Shown here: in pieces, positions 9,034 to 34,339 of the stretch
Layout: each line of letters begins with the position of its first letter
Numbering within the stretch: position 1 is the stretch's first letter
Virus record (IMG/VR): IMGVR_UViG_2648501437_000013
From: a virus
Taxonomy: Duplodnaviria > Heunggongvirae > Uroviricota > Caudoviricetes
Direction: 5' to 3' (one strand)
DNA length: 34,339 bases
The notes under the pieces: model-generated
What the model was told of the DNA's origin: nothing
The model's input: the letters and a program-made list of their open reading frames with translations, nothing else
Databases searched by the model: none
Program-made: the position numbers and the translations under genes

Positions 9034-10176
9034 TTACAGGTCTGCAAACTGGCTTAGAGAAGCCTTATCCACGGTAGAATCGATCTGACCTACCAGATAT
9101 GTGCTTTGCTCTGCCTCTTGTGGTGCAATTTGCAGTGTGTCGGTTAACAACCACTTGTTCATCCAGACCAGCGGATCAGTGGTAACTTCTGGAAATAAAG
9201 CCTTCAGGCCAAGACGATTCATAGCCAGATTGGTGCGGTATTTTACATAGGTTTTGAGAATATCCGCGTTTAAACCAATCATCGAACCGTCTTTGAAGAG
9301 ATAGTCTGCCCAGTTCATTTCTTGTTCGGCGACTGATTTCATGGTGTCGTAAATGACGTTTTCTTCATCAGCAGCAATCTCTTTCCACAATAAACCTTCT
9401 CGACCGGTACGCATGAAGCGGATCATGCGTTCAGTTCCTTCGCAATGCAGAGCTTCATCACGGGCAATAAAGCGCATAATTTTGGTGTTACCCTCAAGCA
9501 ACTTCCGTTCGCCAAAGGCAAACGTACATGCAAAACTTACATAGAAACGGATCGCCTCAAGCGCATTAATGGACACCAACGTGCGGAAAAGCTGACGATG
9601 CAAAGGGTATGGCTCCCAGCCATATTCATTTACGTACAGACGTTCAAACTCCTTCTCACCTAACGACTGGCGCTCGCATGTCATCCCATAAAGCCTGTCA
9701 TATTCAGCAGAGATACTGATCGCTCGGTTGATGATTTCTTCATCCGTAACAATACCGTCAAAAACAATGCTCGGATCGTCCACCATGCCACGAATAATGT
9801 GGGTGTAGCTACGGCTATGGATAGTCTCAGAGAAAGACCACGTTTCAACCCACGTTTCCAGTTCAGGAATAGAGATAAGCGGCAGCAGCGTTGCATTTGG
9901 GCTACGTCCCTGAACTGAATCGAGCAACGTTTGATAACGGAGATTACTCAGGAAAATGTGGCGTTCGTGGTCCCGCAGCTTCGTATTGAAGTCGATGCGA
10001 TCGCTCGAAATATCAACTTCTTCCGGCCGCCAGAAGAAAGACAATTGACGTTCAATCAACTTTTCAAAATCACGGTATTTTTGCTGATCGTAACGTGCCA
10101 CGTTGACAGATTGTCCGAGGAACATAGGCTCTTTGGTTGCATCATTAGCACCCAAACGGAACGTTGAATATGACAT
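9034..10176 (-). CDS. nrdB: Ribonucleotide reductase class Ia beta subunit
   Basis: Near-collinear similarity to E. coli NrdB from MSYSTF... to ...YLVGQIDS (di-iron and tyrosyl-radical regions); start set at ATG 10176 with AAGGAAAAACAC leader. Confidence 0.9.
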
Positions 10177-27377: not shown

Positions 27378-30300
27378 TCACGTCTTAATAGTTTCTGCTA
27401 CGTCGGCTAATATCGCTTCTAGTCGTTCTCCCTCTTCAGGTCTGAAGTAAAGAATGTTGGGGTTAAACCCGTAAAAGACAGTAACGTCAAGGTCTGGAAG
27501 ATACTCCTTCCTGCCGACCAAATCGGATGGCTTGTTTTTGTTGTTAAACAATGCCGTTGCCCGGCTGCCACACGTCAGCACATAGGTCGGACGCACCAGA
27601 TTGATCTCTTCACGTATAAAGTCGGTGAACTGGCCGATCTCGTCTTTGGTGTAGTCTTTTTCTTTGTCTTTAACCTTCTTGCAAACGCCTGTGACATAGA
27701 GATCGCCCATGCGTAAATCTCCAGCCGTCAATAGCTTGGCCTTAAAGTCGTCGTATCCGTTCTCCATAAAGTAACCGGTTCGAGCATCATTGCCGTTCGC
27801 ATTGTCCAGAATGATCATGATTTTCGGCTTAATACCAATGCTGGGGCGGATTAGTTCATCACCTAAGCCCATTTCAGCCGCCATCCGCGTCATGAGTACG
27901 TTAATTTCAGCCGAACGTTTGGGGTTCATCTCAAACGGACGTGAGGCTTTAACTGCGTCTATGACAAGATTTCCCATCAATTCAGCCTGGTCGCGTAGGC
28001 GCTCTGGAGCAGTTGCTGGCAGACTACCTGGCTCGATGGATGCAAACGCCCCTACTTTTTGCAGCGATTCGCGCACTCGACTATTACAGGCACGTTTCTC
28101 GACAGCTTCTTCGAATTGCGCCAGTGACTCGAATTTGCCGCCAACTTTTTCTCGCGCTCTCATGATGGCTTGGCAGCCATTCTCAGAACACCCCTTCACA
28201 GCAGAGAATGGCGCATACAGCACCTGGCTGCCATCTTCAAGCGTGCGGATCTCGATTCGGTTAGATGACACGTTAACGTCTGGTGGCAATACGCGAATAC
28301 CATAGGTCAGCGCATCTTTAACCAGCCCTTGGTGTTTATCTTCGCCAAGAATAGTGAGAGCAGCAGCGAAAAACTCTGCGGGATAATGAGTTTTCAACCA
28401 CATAGATTGATAACTGATTAAGGAGTAAGCAACAGAGTGTGATTTGTTGAACTGGTAGGCACCATTTTTTTCGAATGCGGTCCAGATCTCCTTCGCTTTC
28501 ATCTCTGATAGCCCTGGATGTGACGCTGTAACGCGTACTGCGTTTATAGGTAGTTTTGCGCCGTGCTCAAGTGCCTCTTCGACAGTTTTCAGAGTTCCGT
28601 CTTCGCATTTAAAATGTTCCGCACGGTGAATGCGCTGTGTAGTGCCATCTTCCAGCTCAACGTCTATCCAGCCAGCTTGAGCCTGAACGATGAACTTCTC
28701 GCCCATGCTCTTCATTTTTTCCATGTCCTTTTTGCCGATCGCTTTACGAACACCGTCAGCTTCAGCCATTGTGAAGCCAGCAAGCAATCGAGTCGCGTTC
28801 ATCGTCTGTTCCTGATAGAGAATCACGCCATTTGTTTCTGCGGTAAGTTCATCAAGAACGGGGTGTAATGATTCCGGCGTCATAAAGCCTTTGGCTACAG
28901 AAACATAGTCATCCAACATGCCTGACTGAATTGGCCCTGGCCGGAAGAGCGCAGTCGTAGCGACGACCGTTTTAAAGCTCATTGGCTCAATTCCACCACC
29001 TAAATCTTTAAGCAGCTTGCGCATTGGGCCTGATTCAAGCTGGAAAACACCTTGAGTATACCCAGCAGCAAAACCATCCAGCACCTTGCGATCTTCAAGA
29101 GAAATGGCATCAAGATTGATATCTTCACCTGTGTTCTCTTTTATGTAGCGTTTTGCACTATCGAGCAAATCGAGAGTTGCCAGGCCAAGCACGTCCAGCT
29201 TAATTAGGCCCATAGCCTCGCAGTAACGCTTGTCAAATGCGATACAACGCGCGTCACCACGGCGCTCAACCGGTGTACGTTCTGTCAGAAGAACACCTGC
29301 TACGATCATCCCTGCCGCATGTCTACCAAAGCCACGCATAAGGCTTTGTAACTTGCAGGCTGCATTGAATGCATCAGGATATTTTGTTGCGTATTTGTCG
29401 AGACTTGCCAGTTGTTCGCGCAGCTCTTCCAATGGAAGGCTATCATCCTCGACGTTCTTCAGTTCTTTTGATACCGCCATATCTGCGGACTCCACACCAT
29501 AAATACGAGCGGTATCACGTAGTGCAGAGGCTGCGCCCAGGTAGGTGAAGTTCGGAATGCCTGCAACGTAATCTTCGCCGTAGCGTTCATTCAGATACTC
29601 GATCACTTCATGGCGACGTGCCTGGCTGAAGTCCAAATCCGCATCCGGCAAGTCGAGACGCTCAGGGTTGATGAAACGTTCAAACAGAAGACCGTGACGG
29701 ATTGGGTCGACGTTGGTTATGCCTATGCACCATGCCACCAGAGATCCAGCGGAGGAACCACGACCAGGCCCGACAGGAATGCCAGTTTCACGGCTGTGAT
29801 TCATCAGATCGCGTACCATCAGGAAGTAACCACAAAATCCCAGGCGAGTCAGCGTGTCCATTTCGTACTTTAGCCGCTCAACATAAACCCTGTTCTCAGA
29901 AGCAGGTGGTGTGTAGCCAAACTCTTTTGTGGTAAGACGTTTACGCAGCCCTGCAACAGCCAGTTTCATAAGCGTTGCAGGCTCGTCGTCTGCCATCTTT
30001 GGCAGTGCTGGCGGCAATTCATGCCAGCGCCATGTGCAGGCATCGATAATGGTATCCTGCGTTGTTGAGGCCATTGCAGCTGTTACCGGCACATCCATGC
30101 GAACGGAGAAGGCTTTAAGCGCCTCAAGGAGATGGCGGCGACCATTGACGGCGTTATCTCGCTGGTGGGGGATACGCAGACGATGCGGCTGGTCGATTTT
30201 GATGTTGTTCGTAACCATGTGCGCAATGTCTTTAATGTCTGCATCGTCGATCGATTCGTAATAAGCGGGATAGAACGCCACTGGCTCTATTTTCAATGCG

Positions 30301-30896
30301 CTGGCGACTTTCATCGCCCGGACGTTAATCTGGTCGTAGAATGGGGTAGGGTGCGGATAAACCACACTATAGAAGTTGTCTTTTCCACCCGCTGTAATCA
30401 GTGTGCTTATAATTTTTGCAAAATCGTTGCGTTGGAACACGCTACCGATGTCGGAAGTAAGCAGGATGATGTTGCCTTTGGCATATGTAGAAACCAACTG
30501 TTCGAGCGAGAGACGCGGTACAAAGTAGAACTGTTCTCGTGTGTTGGCCGCCGTCATTAGTTCGCAGATGTCGCGATATCCTTTCTCATTTTTAATTAGA
30601 GCGGTAAACGAGTAGTTACGTCCTCGCTCTAATGATTCCATACATCCCTTAGATTCTTTAGCAAGTTTAGCCCGGTGCTCGTATGTGGGATCATCAACGA
30701 TATTTAGTTTCACACCACAAATAACCGCCATGTCGCCACCAGCGGCACGTTGTAGTGGAATAACACTCGCAATATTCATGCTATCTGCTGAAATTACAGC
30801 GGTGTAGCCAGCTTCTCTGGCAATCTTCACCGCGTTTTCTGCTTTTAAAGCCGACTCCCCAAGTGAGAAGTCAGTTCGAACCATCAGTGCCTTCAT
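27378..30896 (-). CDS. dnaE: DNA polymerase III alpha subunit (DnaE-type replicative polymerase, N-terminal PHP domain)
   Basis: 1172 aa; PolC/DnaE palm motif GYFLMVRDLMNHSRETGIPVGPGRGSSAGSLVAWCIGITNVDP; PHP-like N-terminus; length close to E. coli DnaE, no intein-sized insertion. Confidence 0.9.
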   Translation of the reverse strand: MKALMVRTDFSLGESALKAENAVKIAREAGYTAVISADSMNIASVIPLQRAAGGDMAVICGVKLNIVDDPTYEHRAKLAKESKGCMESLERGRNYSFTALIKNEKGYRDICELMTAANTREQFYFVPRLSLEQLVSTYAKGNIILLTSDIGSVFQRNDFAKIISTLITAGGKDNFYSVVYPHPTPFYDQINVRAMKVASALKIEPVAFYPAYYESIDDADIKDIAHMVTNNIKIDQPHRLRIPHQRDNAVNGRRHLLEALKAFSVRMDVPVTAAMASTTQDTIIDACTWRWHELPPALPKMADDEPATLMKLAVAGLRKRLTTKEFGYTPPASENRVYVERLKYEMDTLTRLGFCGYFLMVRDLMNHSRETGIPVGPGRGSSAGSLVAWCIGITNVDPIRHGLLFERFINPERLDLPDADLDFSQARRHEVIEYLNERYGEDYVAGIPNFTYLGAASALRDTARIYGVESADMAVSKELKNVEDDSLPLEELREQLASLDKYATKYPDAFNAACKLQSLMRGFGRHAAGMIVAGVLLTERTPVERRGDARCIAFDKRYCEAMGLIKLDVLGLATLDLLDSAKRYIKENTGEDINLDAISLEDRKVLDGFAAGYTQGVFQLESGPMRKLLKDLGGGIEPMSFKTVVATTALFRPGPIQSGMLDDYVSVAKGFMTPESLHPVLDELTAETNGVILYQEQTMNATRLLAGFTMAEADGVRKAIGKKDMEKMKSMGEKFIVQAQAGWIDVELEDGTTQRIHRAEHFKCEDGTLKTVEEALEHGAKLPINAVRVTASHPGLSEMKAKEIWTAFEKNGAYQFNKSHSVAYSLISYQSMWLKTHYPAEFFAAALTILGEDKHQGLVKDALTYGIRVLPPDVNVSSNRIEIRTLEDGSQVLYAPFSAVKGCSENGCQAIMRAREKVGGKFESLAQFEEAVEKRACNSRVRESLQKVGAFASIEPGSLPATAPERLRDQAELMGNLVIDAVKASRPFEMNPKRSAEINVLMTRMAAEMGLGDELIRPSIGIKPKIMIILDNANGNDARTGYFMENGYDDFKAKLLTAGDLRMGDLYVTGVCKKVKDKEKDYTKDEIGQFTDFIREEINLVRPTYVLTCGSRATALFNNKNKPSDLVGRKEYLPDLDVTVFYGFNPNILYFRPEEGERLEAILADVAETIKT

Positions 30897-31076
30897 GTGT
30901 TTTTACCTTTCTGGTTTTTTTGATTTTGTCATTTGGGAAGCCTACGAACTTCCCATGCATCGAAATCGCAACTTCTTTTGCTGATTGGTGACAATCAGGC
31001 TTGTCTGGACACACCAGACAAGCCTTACCAGTTTCAGAAGCAGCGATAAGAGAGCCGAAACATCCTTTACGCACGA

Positions 31077-32312
31077 TCAACCAAATATTTTTTGAACAAC
31101 TTCACGAGCCGCTTGTGCAGAAGCTGAAGGGAGTTTGTTAATGAAAGAACGCTCAATACCTGTCACAAAGTCGCCTCGCATCATTCCAATCTTGGCCGAC
31201 AACAAAAGTTCACGAGGGCCAATTGGCTGACTGATAAGGTGTTCTTCGTATCCATCGCGAACGATACCGGCAAACTTAACCATCTTTTCTGCGTATTCAC
31301 CCACGATACCGGCATTTATCAACATGTTGATCTCTGCCTCTTTGCTCATGTATTTCACATTCGAAACGATGCCAAAACGCGAAAAGTTCGCGGCGTTCTG
31401 GATGTTTGTACCCTGGTACAAGCCGGTTTCATCACCAGATCCGTTCGTGTTGCCAGTGCCAATGAAAGCAAACCGTTCATGCGGAGTAATGCGACGCCAT
31501 TCTGGAGTCGCCTCTTTGATGACCAACGCTTCACCTTCCAGCACTGGCTGATACACGCCAAGAATCTGTGGAAACGCAAAGTCGTATTCATCCGCGAGGT
31601 AAACCCAGCCATGCTTCATTGCGAGCGCAAGCAAGCCAGGCTCGAAATACGTAGAGCCATCACGCGCCAGAATTTGCCCCGTAACATGTGCCTCTTCCAT
31701 TGATGCTGTATGTTGGGCACGGATCAACGGACGATTGAGCAAAGCACATAGCTGTGTAGGCAATGACGATTTGCCTGTTCCTGCATGACCCCACAAATAG
31801 CCAGGTATGCCAAGTTCAAGCATCATGAAAATATCTTTGATCAGTTCGAAGTCGCCATATACGTAGCCCTTCTTCACTTCTGGAACGAACTCTGGATACG
31901 GCGTATTGACGTTGACGCTAACCATGAGCGGCGTCCCACGTTTTGTTCCGAGTTCTTCCACCGTTACGTTTAGCAGTTCGTGAGCTGCGACCAGATCTGT
32001 CTTGTACTCAACTGTGCCTGTGTAGCCAGGGCTACTGGTCAAGCCAGAAGATTTGGCCATTTCGCTTTTTTGCTCGGCACGTTTAGCTTGAATTGCATCA
32101 AGTGCCTTTTTCGATAGCGTTGGCTCATCTGGAAACTGCGTTGTGTACATTTTCAGTACGGTGTCAGGATCGGCATCTTTTACTGACTCAGGAATGCCCT
32201 CGCAATTACCATTGGCTACATGGGACTTAAAATAGTGAAATGATTTGCCGCACCACTTGCAAACAAGGTAATCAGAATGATTTTTTTCATTTTGCAGTGC
32301 AGTAGTCGTCAT
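31077..32312 (-). CDS. MoxR/CbbQ-class AAA+ ATPase (CobS-like) with N-terminal Cys-rich zinc-finger-like segment
   Basis: Walker A GHAGTGKSS, Walker B-like WVYLADEYD; N-terminal CKWCG...H...C; directly upstream of a vWA protein. Confidence 0.7.
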   Translation of the reverse strand: MTTTALQNEKNHSDYLVCKWCGKSFHYFKSHVANGNCEGIPESVKDADPDTVLKMYTTQFPDEPTLSKKALDAIQAKRAEQKSEMAKSSGLTSSPGYTGTVEYKTDLVAAHELLNVTVEELGTKRGTPLMVSVNVNTPYPEFVPEVKKGYVYGDFELIKDIFMMLELGIPGYLWGHAGTGKSSLPTQLCALLNRPLIRAQHTASMEEAHVTGQILARDGSTYFEPGLLALAMKHGWVYLADEYDFAFPQILGVYQPVLEGEALVIKEATPEWRRITPHERFAFIGTGNTNGSGDETGLYQGTNIQNAANFSRFGIVSNVKYMSKEAEINMLINAGIVGEYAEKMVKFAGIVRDGYEEHLISQPIGPRELLLSAKIGMMRGDFVTGIERSFINKLPSASAQAAREVVQKIFG

Positions 32313-32371
32313 GCGTTTTTCCTTTGTTCTCTAATGAGCGTTCAACTTCTTATATAAATATACCATTAACT

Positions 32372-32391
32372 ATCGTAAGTGGTTACTTATC
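32372..32391. promoter_or_regulatory. Palindromic motif ATCGTAAGTGGTTACTTATC upstream of the AAA+ ATPase gene
   Basis: Matches the 7931..7946 variant (ATAAGTAACCACTTAT). Confidence 0.4.
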
Positions 32392-32407
32392 ATTAAGGCT
32401 GTTTTAT

Positions 32408-33907
32408 TCACTTCAAAATGATACGAGATAGTTCAGTAACTACAGATGAACCAAGACTATCAACGCTCGTTACCAGGGCATGATTTGAGTAAAATCTCTC
32501 CGGTGCGTCAGTCATGATGCCAATTGCCATCAAATCAATGTCAGTCTGCGTTTCAATTTGCTTCGCAACCGAACGCAAATGAGCGTCAAAACCTCTCCCA
32601 ACAGCCCACGGCGCGCCATCACTCAGAACAAGCATGATCTTCCTGTCCTCCATGCGACCGGAAAATAACGATGCAAGGCTGGCTATGCTTTCACCATCCA
32701 CGTTATTAAGAAGTGGGAATGTGTAGCCTACGCACCCCATACGTGAGCGAACTTCGCGAGAATTTACCTTTTCATTCCAATTTTTGATGATAGGTAGCAT
32801 TAAAGATTCAAAGCGAGAGAACTCATACTTGACAGCCTTAAGTTCTCCTGCCGCCATATGACTACCAAATGTAGTGAAGCCGGTGATAATGTTGGGAACA
32901 TTTATTCGATCAAGGGCATCGGCGATGGTATATGCACTTGCAAGAGCCAATTGTATCGTTATACCACTCATTGAACCTGATAAATCAATCACTTGTTGAA
33001 CACAGGCGTTAACGGCTTTAGATTCTTCTTTTTTACGAAACACGCGATCATCATTCATTGCTAATCTGTAGATACTAGAACCATGAATGCGCCCCCGACG
33101 CTGGCCCGGTATAAACTGAACTCTGTTTCTGCTTGCTATTGCTCGCTCCAAGTCTTTTGCCAGCGTCGACGAAACACCTGACGAAAGATGCTTTTCAATA
33201 TATTTGTCGAAGAGCTGGTTGCCTTCAGGAACGATGCGATAGCGGCTGATTGGATATCCTCCTAAATCAATATCGGAGAATGTTTTAATAAGCCGTTTGA
33301 TATGGGCTTCTGCCTGATCAATCGAGCCGATGAAGTCGTATGAGCGATTGTATGGCCTGTATTCGCTTTTCGAGCTTTCTGTTAACTCGCTTTTAATCGT
33401 TTCGGATAGAGCATCTTCTGTCATGCCTCCGACTTCATCTTCTATGCTATCCAGCTCCTCTAAAGCCTCTTCCAGACTCATTTTTGACGGAGTTGGAATA
33501 TCTGAAGAGCCGTCTTCTGTCGTTTTTCTTTTTTCGTGGTCAGCGATAAATGATTCTGACACCGCGTTATCAGAAGCATCAGAATCTGATACCTCTTTAT
33601 CATTTTCTGTATCATCGAATATTGTTTCTGATGATTCAGAATTATCTGAATCATCACTGTCGTTATTATCATGTTTGTGCTTACTGTGTGATTCTGATTT
33701 GATAGATTTGTGATTATCTAACGCTGAGGGTGTCTCATGATCTTCGTTGTCTTCATTGTTTTCTCCAGAGGCATCCGTCTGGTCAGCGTCTGAAGGATCG
33801 GAAGTTTTTCCCGGAGCTGACTCCTTACCTTTGCTTTCACTTTCAGTGTCTTTGAGGATCTTAGCTATGGTCGCAGCCACCTTTACACAATCCTCGGTGC
33901 AAGACAT
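32408..33907 (-). CDS. von Willebrand factor A (vWA) domain protein, CobT-like, with ~150-aa acidic Ser/Asp-rich N-terminal region
   Basis: MIDAS motif VIDLSGSMSG; ATG at 33905-33907 lies 1 nt from the IS2 terminus. Confidence 0.7.
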   Translation of the reverse strand: MSCTEDCVKVAATIAKILKDTESESKGKESAPGKTSDPSDADQTDASGENNEDNEDHETPSALDNHKSIKSESHSKHKHDNNDSDDSDNSESSETIFDDTENDKEVSDSDASDNAVSESFIADHEKRKTTEDGSSDIPTPSKMSLEEALEELDSIEDEVGGMTEDALSETIKSELTESSKSEYRPYNRSYDFIGSIDQAEAHIKRLIKTFSDIDLGGYPISRYRIVPEGNQLFDKYIEKHLSSGVSSTLAKDLERAIASRNRVQFIPGQRRGRIHGSSIYRLAMNDDRVFRKKEESKAVNACVQQVIDLSGSMSGITIQLALASAYTIADALDRINVPNIITGFTTFGSHMAAGELKAVKYEFSRFESLMLPIIKNWNEKVNSREVRSRMGCVGYTFPLLNNVDGESIASLASLFSGRMEDRKIMLVLSDGAPWAVGRGFDAHLRSVAKQIETQTDIDLMAIGIMTDAPERFYSNHALVTSVDSLGSSVVTELSRIILK

Positions 33908-33908
33908 G

Positions 33909-34339
33909 TGGATTTGCCCCTATATTTCCAGACATCTGTTATCACTTAACCCATTACAAGCCTGCTGCCGCAGATATTCCCGTGGCGAGCGATAACCCAG
34001 CGCACTATGCGGATGCCATTCGTTATAATGCTCGAACGCCTCTGCAAGGTTCTTTGCTGCCGTTAACCCGTCTGGTTTGGGCATGATACTGATGTAGTCA
34101 CGCTTTATCGTTTTCACGAAGCTCTCTGCTATTCCGTTACTCTCCGGACTCCGCACCGCCGTGTTCTTCGGTTCAAGTCCCAACATCCGGGCGAACTGGC
34201 GTGTTTCATTAGCCCGGTAGCATGAACCATTATCCGTCAGCCACTCCACTGGAGACGACGGAAGATCGTTGCCGAAGCGGCGTTCCACCGCTCCCAGCAT
34301 GACGTCCTGTACTGTTTCACTGTTGAAGCCGCCGGTAGT
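33909..34339 (-). mobile_element. IS2 (IS3 family), right ~430 bp including the right inverted repeat; truncated by the window edge
   Basis: Terminal TGGATTTGCCCCTATATTTCCAGACATCTGTTATCACTTAA matches the IS2 right inverted repeat as I recall it; adjacent ORF is the C-terminus of the IS2 transposase. Confidence 0.85.
33920..34339 (-). CDS. insD: IS2 transposase OrfB (InsD), C-terminal part; 5' end lies beyond the window
   Basis: DDE integrase-type C-terminus ...[50 protein letters not shown]...; ORF is open to the window edge. Confidence 0.8.

What the first reader, a model, noticed from the sequence alone, without database searches (positions are those of the whole stretch)
31077..33907. MoxR/CobS-like AAA+ ATPase with zinc-finger N-terminus paired with a vWA/CobT-like protein carrying a long acidic low-complexity arm
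The two adjacent genes form a MoxR-AAA+ plus vWA pair in their own transcription unit between dnaE and the IS2 copy. The ATPase has an extra N-terminal Cys/His cluster. The vWA protein begins with ~150 residues of Asp/Ser/Glu-rich low-complexity sequence before the MIDAS domain. No cobalamin pathway context is present, so a chelatase role is unlikely; the function in a replication module is unknown (chaperone-like remodelling of a replication or defence complex are possibilities).
Basis: partly seen in the sequence, partly recalled or inferred. Interest (0 to 1): 0.6.

Follow-up and report, generated by a model that had tools for sequence, protein, structure and literature searches.

The report
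Phage CobS/CobT-like motor pair, IS2-broken
These two genes are the well-known but functionally unexplained "CobS/CobT-like" ATPase-adaptor pair of SSU5-type phage-plasmids. In this copy an IS2 insertion has cut off the front third of the adaptor gene, so the "acidic N-terminal arm" is really an internal linker.

Summary
Both ORFs exist at the stated coordinates, and the family assignments (MoxR/CobS-like AAA+ ATPase; CobT-like vWA protein) are correct. The window is an E. coli SSU5/Cyrano-type phage-plasmid, 98-99.8% identical to many public records.

Three points change the picture.

1. The 499-aa "vWA" ORF is the 3' 71% of a 702-codon gene. IS2 sits at codon 203/204 and removes the CobT N-domain. 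The acidic stretch is the disordered linker found in all CobT proteins.
2. That lost N-domain keeps an intact HExxH...E zincin motif in 143 of 147 diverse phage-type relatives. Canonical cobaltochelatase CobT has lost the motif.
3. The ATPase "Cys/His cluster" is a Ros/MucR-type prokaryotic zinc finger. It is invariant in this clade.

The pair is not its own transcription unit. It overlaps a small ORF and dnaE, and the order cobT-like, ATPase, small ORF(s), dnaE is conserved in seven distant loci plus the window's close relative pSTEC409_1.

The best reading is an ATP-driven motor-adaptor machine of the lytic replication module. It remodels, and probably cleaves, a protein client. It is not a cobalt chelatase, and it is crippled here by IS2. 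The kind is known; its function is unknown.

The parts
31077..32312 (-). Intact CobS-like (MoxR-class) AAA+ ATPase gene, 411 aa
   Evidence: ORF. Pfam AAA_5 2e-15; phrog_249 2.5e-105; PDB CobS 9ujv 1.4e-25 over residues 142-411. Walker A G175-S182, Walker B D241-E242, sensor-1 N288, Arg finger R312 and sensor-2 R367 are invariant in 59 sequences. They align to CobS G71-S78, D141-E142, N186, R210 and R271. AF2 model pLDDT 91.7. Foldseek best hits are NorQ and CbbQ, TMt 0.87.
32133..32270 (-). Ros/MucR-type zinc-finger domain at the ATPase N-terminus (about aa 15-60; C18, C21, H26, H31, N36/C37)
   Evidence: C18, C21 and H31 are invariant; H26 and H36 are about 97% conserved in 118 homologues. 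17 of 23 relatives hit Pfam ROS_MUCR, best E 1.9e-5. The profile hits the Ros87 structure 2jsp_A at E 3.2e-4, with the Cys, Cys, His, His columns aligned. The AF2 model is confident here, with strands 15-17, 24-25 and 27 and helices 28-33 and 49-59. The window's own copy has N36/C37 instead of H36 and does not itself reach ROS_MUCR.
32408..33907 (-). 3' fragment (codons 204-702) of the CobT-like adaptor gene: last N-domain helix, acidic linker, shaft and vWA/MIDAS domain
33503..33826 (-). Acidic, Ser-rich disordered linker (ORF aa 28-135; aa 231-338 of the intact protein)
   Evidence: Composition. pLDDT is below 50 over residues 231-338 of the model. An acidic linker is family-wide: the median highest D+E fraction in any 60-aa window is 0.50 over 146 proteins. 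It is also present in canonical CobT (preprint).
32972..32986 (-). MIDAS motif D-L-S-G-S of the vWA domain
   Evidence: Motif position. D511, S513 and S515 are invariant in 48 sequences. It aligns to CobT D422, S424 and S426.
33909..34339 (-). Right end of IS2 (3' part of insD, ending in the right terminal inverted repeat), inserted in the CobT-like gene in the same orientation; the window ends inside it
   Evidence: 98.9% identity to annotated IS2/InsD. The InsD stop codon lies 12 nt upstream of the fragment's ATG. No record in PLSDB or in RefSeq complete E. coli genomes has this junction.
30871..31080 (-). orf69, a small Cys-rich gene that overlaps both the ATPase stop and the dnaE start
   Evidence: ORF. 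phrog_6337 2e-45. Overlaps read. Same gene in SSU5.
27378..30896 (-). Phage dnaE (Pol III alpha), downstream gene of the same operon
   Evidence: The order cobT-like, ATPase, small ORF(s), dnaE is conserved.

Best explanation
The two genes are the phage-type CobS/CobT pair. One is a MoxR-class AAA+ motor. The other is its vWA/MIDAS adaptor.

By homology to the solved CobST(N) complex, the ATPase forms a hexameric ring. The adaptor inserts a 'shaft' segment, which lies just before its vWA domain, into the ring pore. The adaptor also docks its N-domain on the ATPase small subdomain. A client protein is held between the MIDAS face and the N-domain.

The phage version differs from the chelatase in two ways:
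- Its adaptor N-domain keeps a complete zincin site (HExxH plus Glu).
- Its motor carries a Ros/MucR-type zinc finger.

The pair sits at the head of the lytic replication operon, immediately upstream of dnaE.

I therefore read it as an ATP-driven machine that remodels, and probably cleaves, a protein client when phage DNA replication starts. The client is possibly DNA-associated. I do not read it as a cobalt chelatase.

In this window the machine is broken. IS2 has separated the zincin N-domain from the linker-vWA part. IS2 also lies between the operon promoter and the ATPase and dnaE genes, so lytic replication of this element is probably impaired, while plasmid maintenance need not be.

Shown: the family identities, the domain architecture, the motif conservation, the IS2 disruption and the synteny.
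Inferred: the ring-shaft assembly, the protease activity, the DNA tethering, the client, and the polar effect of IS2.
For: Identity:
- Fold matches are to NorQ, CbbQ, NorD and Midasin.

Assembly by homology:
- The shaft and vWA region aligns to CobT residues 347-616.
- The CobS residues that contact CobT_N (E308, Q311, R312) correspond to E404, Q407 and K408.
- The predicted N-domain topology is one helix, three strands, then helices. This equals the crystal description of CobT_N, which resembles an M48C peptidase.

Zincin site:
- HExxH is kept in 143 of 147 relatives at 30-57% identity; Glu111 is kept in 147 of 147.
- D73, H74, E75, H78, E106, D107 and E111 are invariant in a 21-sequence subset.
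- Canonical CobT has S-M-A-L-R or A-F-A-L-R at that position.

Zinc finger.

Context:
- Overlapping genes and no terminator.
- Conserved synteny with dnaE in seven distant loci.
- The cyanophage pair lies next to gp45, gp44 and gp62.
- The ICP2-like pair lies next to a helicase and PolA.
- The operon starts beside the divergent putative repressor.
- CYRAN_46-49 are not among the Cyrano genes listed as expressed in lysogeny (PMC9928086).

Against a chelatase:
- Equivalog cut-offs are missed by a factor of 7 or more.
- The phage RNR is class Ia NrdAB.
- E. coli has only the salvage pathway, and CobN had to be added heterologously.

IS2 disruption.
Against: - No experiment on any phage CobS/CobT pair was found.
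- A minority of relatives have lost HExxH (4 of 147; also phage ZY21, 'SEISK'). Catalysis is therefore not universally required.
- The window's own finger lacks the fourth His and does not itself hit ROS_MUCR.
- Synteny within the roughly 100-115-kb phage group may simply reflect common descent.
- Expression of the IS2-proximal fragment, and any polar effect, were not tested.
Confidence: 0.5

Rival explanations
1. True cobaltochelatase subunits. The viral CobS/CobT hijacks a host CobN (or a mosaic chelatase) to raise cobalamin supply for phage replication, as proposed for viral cobST clusters.
For: Clear homology to CobS and CobT, including the shaft, the MIDAS motif and the CobS-CobT_N contact residues. 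The proposal is made in PMC8651126. Many cyanobacterial and alphaproteobacterial hosts of related phages do make B12.
Against: TIGR01650 and TIGR01651 scores are 84 and 67 bits, against cut-offs of 558 and 759. E. coli has only the salvage pathway and Salmonella uses the anaerobic route (PMC6249242). The phage RNR is class Ia, not B12-dependent. Phage-type CobT keeps a zincin motif that real CobT lacks. Gene order is reversed: cobS then cobT in bacteria, cobT then cobS in phages.
Confidence: 0.07
2. Virion-assembly chaperone with a processing protease. A MoxR-vWA pair folds and trims structural proteins, as proposed for T4-like jumbo phages and by analogy to the MoxR-vWA pair needed for tail development of Acidianus two-tailed virus.
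For: Iyer et al. 2021 (PMC7824862) describe the same architecture (MoxR ATPase plus a vWA protein with an N-terminal metallopeptidase) and propose this role. A distant Kayvirus homologue of the ATPase is annotated 'structural protein' in one record (H96).
Against: In every locus examined, the pair sits among replication or early genes: dnaE, ligase, primase, gp45/44/62, helicase/PolA and SSB. It never sits in the structural module. A DNA-binding-type zinc finger on the motor is not expected for a capsid or tail chaperone.
Confidence: 0.15
3. Metallochaperone. Like NorQ-NorD, CoxD-CoxE or CobST, the pair inserts a metal into a phage metalloenzyme encoded nearby, such as the PHP domain of DnaE or NrdB. 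The HExxH site would serve as a metal-holding site rather than a protease.
For: The closest structural relatives are metal-insertion machines: NorQD and CobSTN (discussion). The genes are adjacent to dnaE, which has a PHP domain. NrdAB is in the same element.
Against: The complete gluzincin signature, with catalytic Glu75 invariant, is typical of hydrolases. No metal-insertion client is known for phage DnaE or NrdB. The pair also occurs in phages that use PolA rather than DnaE.
Confidence: 0.12
4. Decaying passenger genes with no current function in this element.
For: The adaptor gene is disrupted by IS2 in this window.
Against: The ATPase is intact and 99% identical to relatives. About 190 PLSDB plasmids carry the uninterrupted region, and none has this IS2 junction. 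Catalytic and metal-binding residues are invariant across 30-57% identity. The insertion therefore looks recent and strain-specific.
Confidence: 0.05

Closest known systems
Aerobic cobaltochelatase motor CobS-CobT (CobSTN holoenzyme; Brucella melitensis cryo-EM, bioRxiv 10.64898/2026.07.21.739949; PDB 9ujv, 9uka)
   Same: The AAA+ motor has all catalytic motifs. The adaptor has a CobT N-domain, a roughly 100-aa acidic disordered linker, a shaft and a vWA/MIDAS domain. The CobS small-subdomain residues that contact CobT_N are conserved.
   Different: No CobN partner. Scores lie far below the equivalog cut-offs. HExxH is intact in the phage type and lost in real CobT. The ATPase has about 140 extra N-terminal residues with a Ros/MucR finger. 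Gene order is reversed. The context is a replication operon. The window's adaptor lacks the N-domain.
Viral cobST two-gene cluster (Liu et al. 2021, PMC8651126) and the jumbo-phage MoxR-vWA-metallopeptidase pair (Iyer et al. 2021, PMC7824862); cyanophage core gene cobS
   Same: The same two-gene module in tailed viruses. The adaptor is annotated 'peptidase' in cyanophages.
   Different: This clade (SSU5-like, Nickievirus, Vibrio and soil phage-plasmids) adds the Ros/MucR finger, which cyanophage, ICP2 and Kayvirus homologues lack. It also has fixed synteny with dnaE. The two papers give conflicting readings (chelatase vs peptidase chaperone), which the motif comparison here helps to reconcile.
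NorQ-NorD, CbbQ-CbbO and Midasin (Rea1) MIDAS: MoxR-class motor with a vWA adaptor
   Different: Sequence identity is only 13-21%. Those adaptors lack the zincin-like N-domain, and their clients (cNOR, Rubisco, pre-ribosome factors) are absent here.
Ros/MucR prokaryotic C2H2 zinc-finger proteins
   Same: C-x2-C-x9-H-x4-H spacing. The predicted fold has three strands then two helices. There are profile hits to Pfam ROS_MUCR and to Ros87.
   Different: Here the finger is fused to an AAA+ motor rather than to an oligomerisation domain. The fourth ligand is N36/C37 in the SSU5-like copies. DNA binding is untested.

Membership tests
Cobaltochelatase subunit CobS (TIGR01650 equivalog) | Score at or above the curated equivalog cut-off | tested here: not met
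   84.2 bits against a cut-off of 558.55.
Cobaltochelatase subunit CobS (TIGR01650 equivalog) | AAA+ catalytic motifs as in solved CobS (Walker A and B, sensor-1 N, Arg finger, sensor-2 R) | tested here: met
   G175-S182, D241-E242, N288, R312 and R367 align to CobS G71-S78, D141-E142, N186, R210 and R271. They are invariant in 59 sequences.
Cobaltochelatase CobNST holoenzyme | A CobN catalytic subunit available in the element or host | not testable with these tools
   None is annotated in the homologous Cyrano regions inspected, which cover the window's span. E. coli has only the salvage pathway, and CobN had to be supplied heterologously (PMC6249242). No direct CobN search of the host genome was possible.
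Cobaltochelatase subunit CobT (TIGR01651 equivalog; Pfam CobT + CobT_C) | Score at or above the equivalog cut-off | tested here: not met
   66.6 bits against a cut-off of 759.05.
Cobaltochelatase subunit CobT (TIGR01651 equivalog; Pfam CobT + CobT_C) | Architecture: CobT N-domain, acidic linker, then shaft and vWA/MIDAS | tested here: not met
   Intact relatives have it: PF06213 5e-27 plus PF11775 1.3e-82. The window copy has only the linker and CobT_C, because IS2 removed codons 1-203.
MoxR-class AAA+ ATPase with vWA partner | AAA_5-type core, MoxR-like fold, adjacent vWA/MIDAS gene | tested here: met
   AAA_5 57.4 bits against a cut-off of 22. Foldseek NorQ and CbbQ E 3e-16, TMt 0.87. The vWA gene lies 95 bp upstream.
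vWA/MIDAS domain | DxSxS motif and vWA fold | tested here: met
Zincin (gluzincin, M48-like) metallopeptidase domain | HExxH plus a downstream Glu ligand on the helix after a three-stranded sheet | tested here: inconclusive
   The motif is present and conserved in intact relatives (143 of 147), with the matching predicted topology. Fold searches did not surface the N-domain. Activity is untested. The domain is absent from the window copy.
Ros/MucR zinc finger (Pfam PF05443) | C-x2-C-x9-H-x4-H ligands in a fold of three strands then two helices | tested here: inconclusive
   Met for the clade: 17 of 23 relatives hit ROS_MUCR, and Ros87 is hit at E 3.2e-4. The window's own copy has C18, C21 and H31 but N36/C37 in place of the fourth His, and it does not itself reach the model.
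Viral cobST cluster (tailed-virus two-gene module) | Adjacent CobT-like and CobS-like genes in a tailed-phage genome | tested here: met
   The window is 98-99% identical to phages Cyrano, PhiR41_1 and CMS-2020a. The pair is found in 51 (adaptor) and 801 (ATPase) phage records.
IS2 (IS3 family) | Terminal inverted repeat and InsD reading frame | tested here: met
   98.9% identity to annotated IS2. The terminal sequence ...GGGGCAAATCCA lies at the junction, and the InsD ORF is 33920-34300. That this is the IS2 terminal sequence rests on my own knowledge.

The most novel reading that the evidence does not exclude
The phage CobS/CobT-like pair is a DNA-tethered AAA+ protease. Six Ros/MucR fingers place the ring on (AT-rich) DNA. 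The vWA/MIDAS adaptor captures a DNA-bound host protein, such as a nucleoid silencer like H-NS or a component of the host replisome. The intact zincin domain then cleaves the captured protein. This clears the way for the phage DnaE polymerase at the start of lytic replication. It would also explain the long-unexplained 'cobS' of cyanophages and other viruses as a host-takeover machine rather than a vitamin B12 gene.
Probability: 0.15. Interest if true: 0.8.

Novelty: new member of a known kind. Interest (0 to 1): 0.4.

Why it matters
Viral 'cobS/cobT' genes are core genes of marine cyanophages and occur in many phage groups, yet their role has been unexplained since at least 2005 and they are routinely counted as vitamin B12 auxiliary metabolic genes.

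Two results argue against the B12 reading. The phage adaptor keeps a protease-type zinc site that the real chelatase subunit has lost. In this clade the motor also carries a DNA-binding-type finger and is locked to dnaE.

This gives concrete, mutable residues to test in a genetically tractable E. coli system: Cyrano/pLF82, and PhiR41_1, whose recorded host is MG1655.

For this particular element, the IS2 insertion probably marks a phage-plasmid that is drifting towards a plasmid-only life. It also shows how a truncated gene can be mistaken for a protein with an unusual N-terminus.

Tried and rejected
- **Defence role:** PADLOC found nothing for the ATPase and only a marginal DrmE hit (E 0.0014) for the adaptor. 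Rejected as evidence.
- **Source record with the same IS2 junction:** none in PLSDB or in RefSeq complete E. coli genomes.
- **5' fragment of the CobT-like gene, or a second IS2, in the window:** absent.
- **Sequence profile of the phage N-domain against the PDB:** it did not retrieve solved CobT_N. It gave only a weak AcrIIA26 hit (E 0.002), which I did not pursue.
- **Promoter and terminator scans of 30700-34339:** counts were at chance level, so they were used only as absence of an obvious minus-strand terminator.
- **Literature searches for functional work on phage CobS/CobT, or for a MucR finger fused to CobS:** nothing found.
- **CobS H2-insert residues that contact the CobT shaft (S102, I104, D110):** hand mapping on the alignment suggests they are not conserved in the phage ATPase. 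I did not use this either way.
Full report
**What is there**

The region holds two ORFs on the minus strand. One spans 31077-32312 (411 aa) and the other 32408-33907 (499 aa). Downstream on the same strand lie a 69-aa ORF (30871-31080) and a 1172-aa dnaE (27378-30896). An IS2 transposase fragment runs from 33920 to the end of the window.

The DNA is 98-99.8% identical to E. coli SSU5-type phage-plasmids. These include phage Cyrano (OV696614), PhiR41_1, CMS-2020a, pSTEC409_1 and about 190 PLSDB plasmids. It is 75% identical to Salmonella phage SSU5.

**Family assignment**

- The 411-aa protein hits Pfam AAA_5 (2e-15), phrog_249 'porphyrin biosynthesis' (2.5e-105) and the solved cobaltochelatase motor CobS (PDB 9ujv, 1.4e-25, residues 142-411).
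- All AAA+ catalytic residues are present and are invariant in 59 homologues.
- An AlphaFold model (pLDDT 91.7) superposes best on the MoxR-class ATPases NorQ and CbbQ, with TMt 0.87.
- The 499-aa protein hits Pfam CobT_C (6e-83) and solved CobT (9uka_G, 9e-17). It has a DLSGS MIDAS motif.

**The main correction: the adaptor gene is truncated by IS2**

- phrog_1576 matched the 499-aa ORF only at profile positions 200-729.
- In pSTEC409_1, Cyrano and hundreds of others the gene has 702 codons.
- Those intact proteins carry a Pfam CobT N-domain (residues 9-294, 5e-27) ahead of the acidic stretch.
- In the window, homology to the intact gene stops exactly where the IS2 terminal sequence ...GGGGCAAATCCA begins. 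The junction lies at codon 203/204 (...VAVRN|MSCT...). The ORF simply starts at internal Met204.
- The missing 609 bp are not elsewhere in the window, which ends inside IS2.
- No plasmid in PLSDB and no RefSeq complete E. coli genome has this junction. The insertion is therefore strain-specific.

The 'long acidic N-terminal arm' is in fact the internal linker:

- It is 108 aa long, with 31% Asp+Glu, 26% Ser+Thr and net charge -23.
- It is predicted to be disordered, with pLDDT below 50 over residues 231-338 of the intact protein.
- It corresponds to the roughly 90-residue disordered linker of real CobT (preprint).
- Acidic linkers are family-wide.

**What the lost domain is**

A 2026 preprint on the CobSTN holoenzyme reports the following:

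- CobT_N has a peptidase-M48C-like fold.
- CobT_N docks on the CobS small subdomain.
- A 'shaft' segment just before the vWA domain enters the CobS ring.
- CobN sits between CobT_N and the MIDAS face.

The phage proteins align over the shaft and vWA region. The CobS residues that contact CobT_N (E308, Q311, R312) correspond to E404, Q407 and K408 in the phage ATPase. The predicted N-domain has the same topology of one helix, three strands and then helices.

The striking difference is the active site:

- Of 147 full-length representatives at 30-57% identity, 143 keep HExxH at residues 74-78. All 147 keep Glu111.
- D73, H74, E75, H78, E106, D107 and E111 are invariant in a 21-sequence subset.
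- Genuine CobT proteins, taken from Rhizobium and Cereibacter loci where cobS and cobT lie close together, read RGLGDSMALRL and RGTADAFALRR at that position. The two His and the catalytic Glu are gone.

Phage-type 'CobT' is therefore a vWA adaptor with an apparently competent zincin module, and chelatase CobT is a degenerate derivative.

This reconciles two published readings of the same genes. Iyer et al. (PMC7824862) describe a 'MoxR-vWA chaperone with N-terminal metallopeptidase'. Liu et al. (PMC8651126) describe a 'viral cobST', and they regard the cyanophage 'peptidase' annotation as a mistake.

**The ATPase N-terminus**

The Cys/His cluster is real and conserved:

- C18, C21 and H31 are invariant in 118 homologues. 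H26 and H36 are about 97% conserved.
- The spacing C-x2-C-x9-H-x4-H equals that of Ros (C79, C82, H92, H97; PMC9779718).
- 17 of 23 relatives hit Pfam ROS_MUCR, with a best E of 1.9e-5.
- The profile hits the Ros87 NMR structure at E 3.2e-4, with the four ligand columns aligned.
- The model shows a confident fold of three strands followed by two helices.
- The SSU5-like copies, including this window's, have N36/C37 instead of the fourth His. They do not reach the Pfam model on their own.
- The finger is absent from cyanophage, ICP2-like and Kayvirus homologues.

I found no paper describing this fusion.

**Context**

The pair is not a separate transcription unit:

- The ATPase stop overlaps the orf69 start (TTGA).
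- orf69 overlaps dnaE by 26 nt.
- No minus-strand terminator was detected.
- In intact relatives the operon begins next to a divergent putative repressor.
- In Cyrano lysogens that repressor is among the expressed genes listed, but CYRAN_46-49 are not. This fits a lytic role (PMC9928086).

The order CobT-like, ATPase, small ORF(s), DnaE recurs in seven distant loci:

- Pseudomonas phage ZY21
- Salmonella phage SSU5
- a soil prophage
- a Vibrio phage-plasmid
- two metagenomic phage-plasmids
- the window's close relative pSTEC409_1 shows the same order

In unrelated lineages the pair also lies by replication genes. In a cyanomyovirus it is next to gp45, gp44 and gp62. In an ICP2-like podovirus it is next to a helicase and PolA.

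**Function**

A cobalt-chelatase role is unlikely:

- The scores are 7 to 11 times below the equivalog cut-offs.
- No CobN is present in the element.
- E. coli has only corrinoid salvage.
- The phage ribonucleotide reductase is the B12-independent class Ia.
- Hosts of homologous pairs include Vibrio cholerae, Klebsiella and Salmonella.

The best-supported model is a motor-adaptor machine that works at the onset of lytic DNA replication. It remodels a protein client held at the MIDAS face and probably cleaves it. In this clade a DNA-binding-type finger possibly directs it to DNA. The client is unknown.

The rivals are a virion-assembly chaperone, a metallochaperone for DnaE-PHP or NrdB, and CobN hijacking. 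They are weighed in the rival section.

In this window the adaptor is split and IS2 lies upstream of the ATPase and dnaE. The machine, and perhaps lytic replication, is therefore likely impaired. IS2 points the same way as the operon, and InsD stops 12 nt before the fragment's ATG, so weak read-through expression of the linker-vWA fragment cannot be excluded. This last point is inference.

**Novelty and verdict**

The gene pair is a known kind. It is annotated, inconsistently, in hundreds of records, and it has been discussed in at least two comparative papers. Its function is unknown.

What this analysis adds:

- the IS2 truncation that explains the odd 'N-terminal arm';
- the contrast in the zincin motif between phage-type and chelatase CobT;
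- the Ros/MucR-type finger on the motor;
- the fixed linkage to dnaE.

Interest is moderate. The finding as written is partly an artefact. The underlying system does bear on a long-standing open question, and it can be tested in E. coli.

Noticed in passing
window 30871-31080 (-): orf69 is a Cys-rich 69-aa protein (C7, C21, C24, C30, H31; phrog_6337, 2e-45). Its start overlaps the ATPase stop and its end overlaps the dnaE start by 26 nt. SSU5 has the same gene, but other clades carry different small ORFs at this position. It may be a small zinc-binding partner of the pair or of DnaE.
   Followed up: partly
N-domain of the intact CobT-like protein (P0001 residues about 87-139; the region is not in the window): A profile of the phage CobT-like N-domain gives a weak hit (E 0.002, 53 columns) to the anti-CRISPR AcrIIA26 (PDB 9zq6_B). 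The match lies around the invariant N-x-x-E-D-x-x-I-E motif. AcrIIA26 is described as a novel fold. Chance or remote homology is unresolved.
   Followed up: partly
L002 (phage Cyrano OV696614), CDS CYRAN_47 and CYRAN_48; also several plasmid records: Public annotations suffer from a name collision. The pair is labelled 'dimethylbenzimidazole phosphoribosyltransferase' and 'cobalamin synthetase', which are the unrelated Salmonella/E. coli salvage enzymes CobT and CobS. Elsewhere it is labelled 'porphyrin biosynthesis protein'. A roseophage paper (PMC11288001) repeats the same confusion.
   Followed up: yes
window 33909-34339: The window ends inside IS2, which suggests a contig break at a repeat. 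The IS2 insertion in this gene was found in no PLSDB plasmid and no RefSeq complete E. coli genome.
   Followed up: yes
L009 and L010 (Rhizobium and Cereibacter plasmids): In both bacteria a J-domain (DnaJ-like) protein gene lies immediately upstream of the genuine cobS-cobT genes. Gene order there is cobS then cobT, the reverse of the phage order.
   Followed up: no
L003 (Pseudomonas phage ZY21) 4847-6928: The ZY21 CobT-like protein has 'SEISK' in place of HExxH, while its ATPase keeps the Ros/MucR finger. It is a natural variant that lacks the zincin ligands. About 3% of the family (4 of 147) is like this.
   Followed up: partly
L011 (soil metagenome contig) 9209-9943: In a soil prophage, a gene with a weak Sigma70_r2 hit lies between the ATPase and dnaE. 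In addition, dnaE there is split by an HNH endonuclease gene, which suggests an intein or homing-endonuclease insertion.
   Followed up: no
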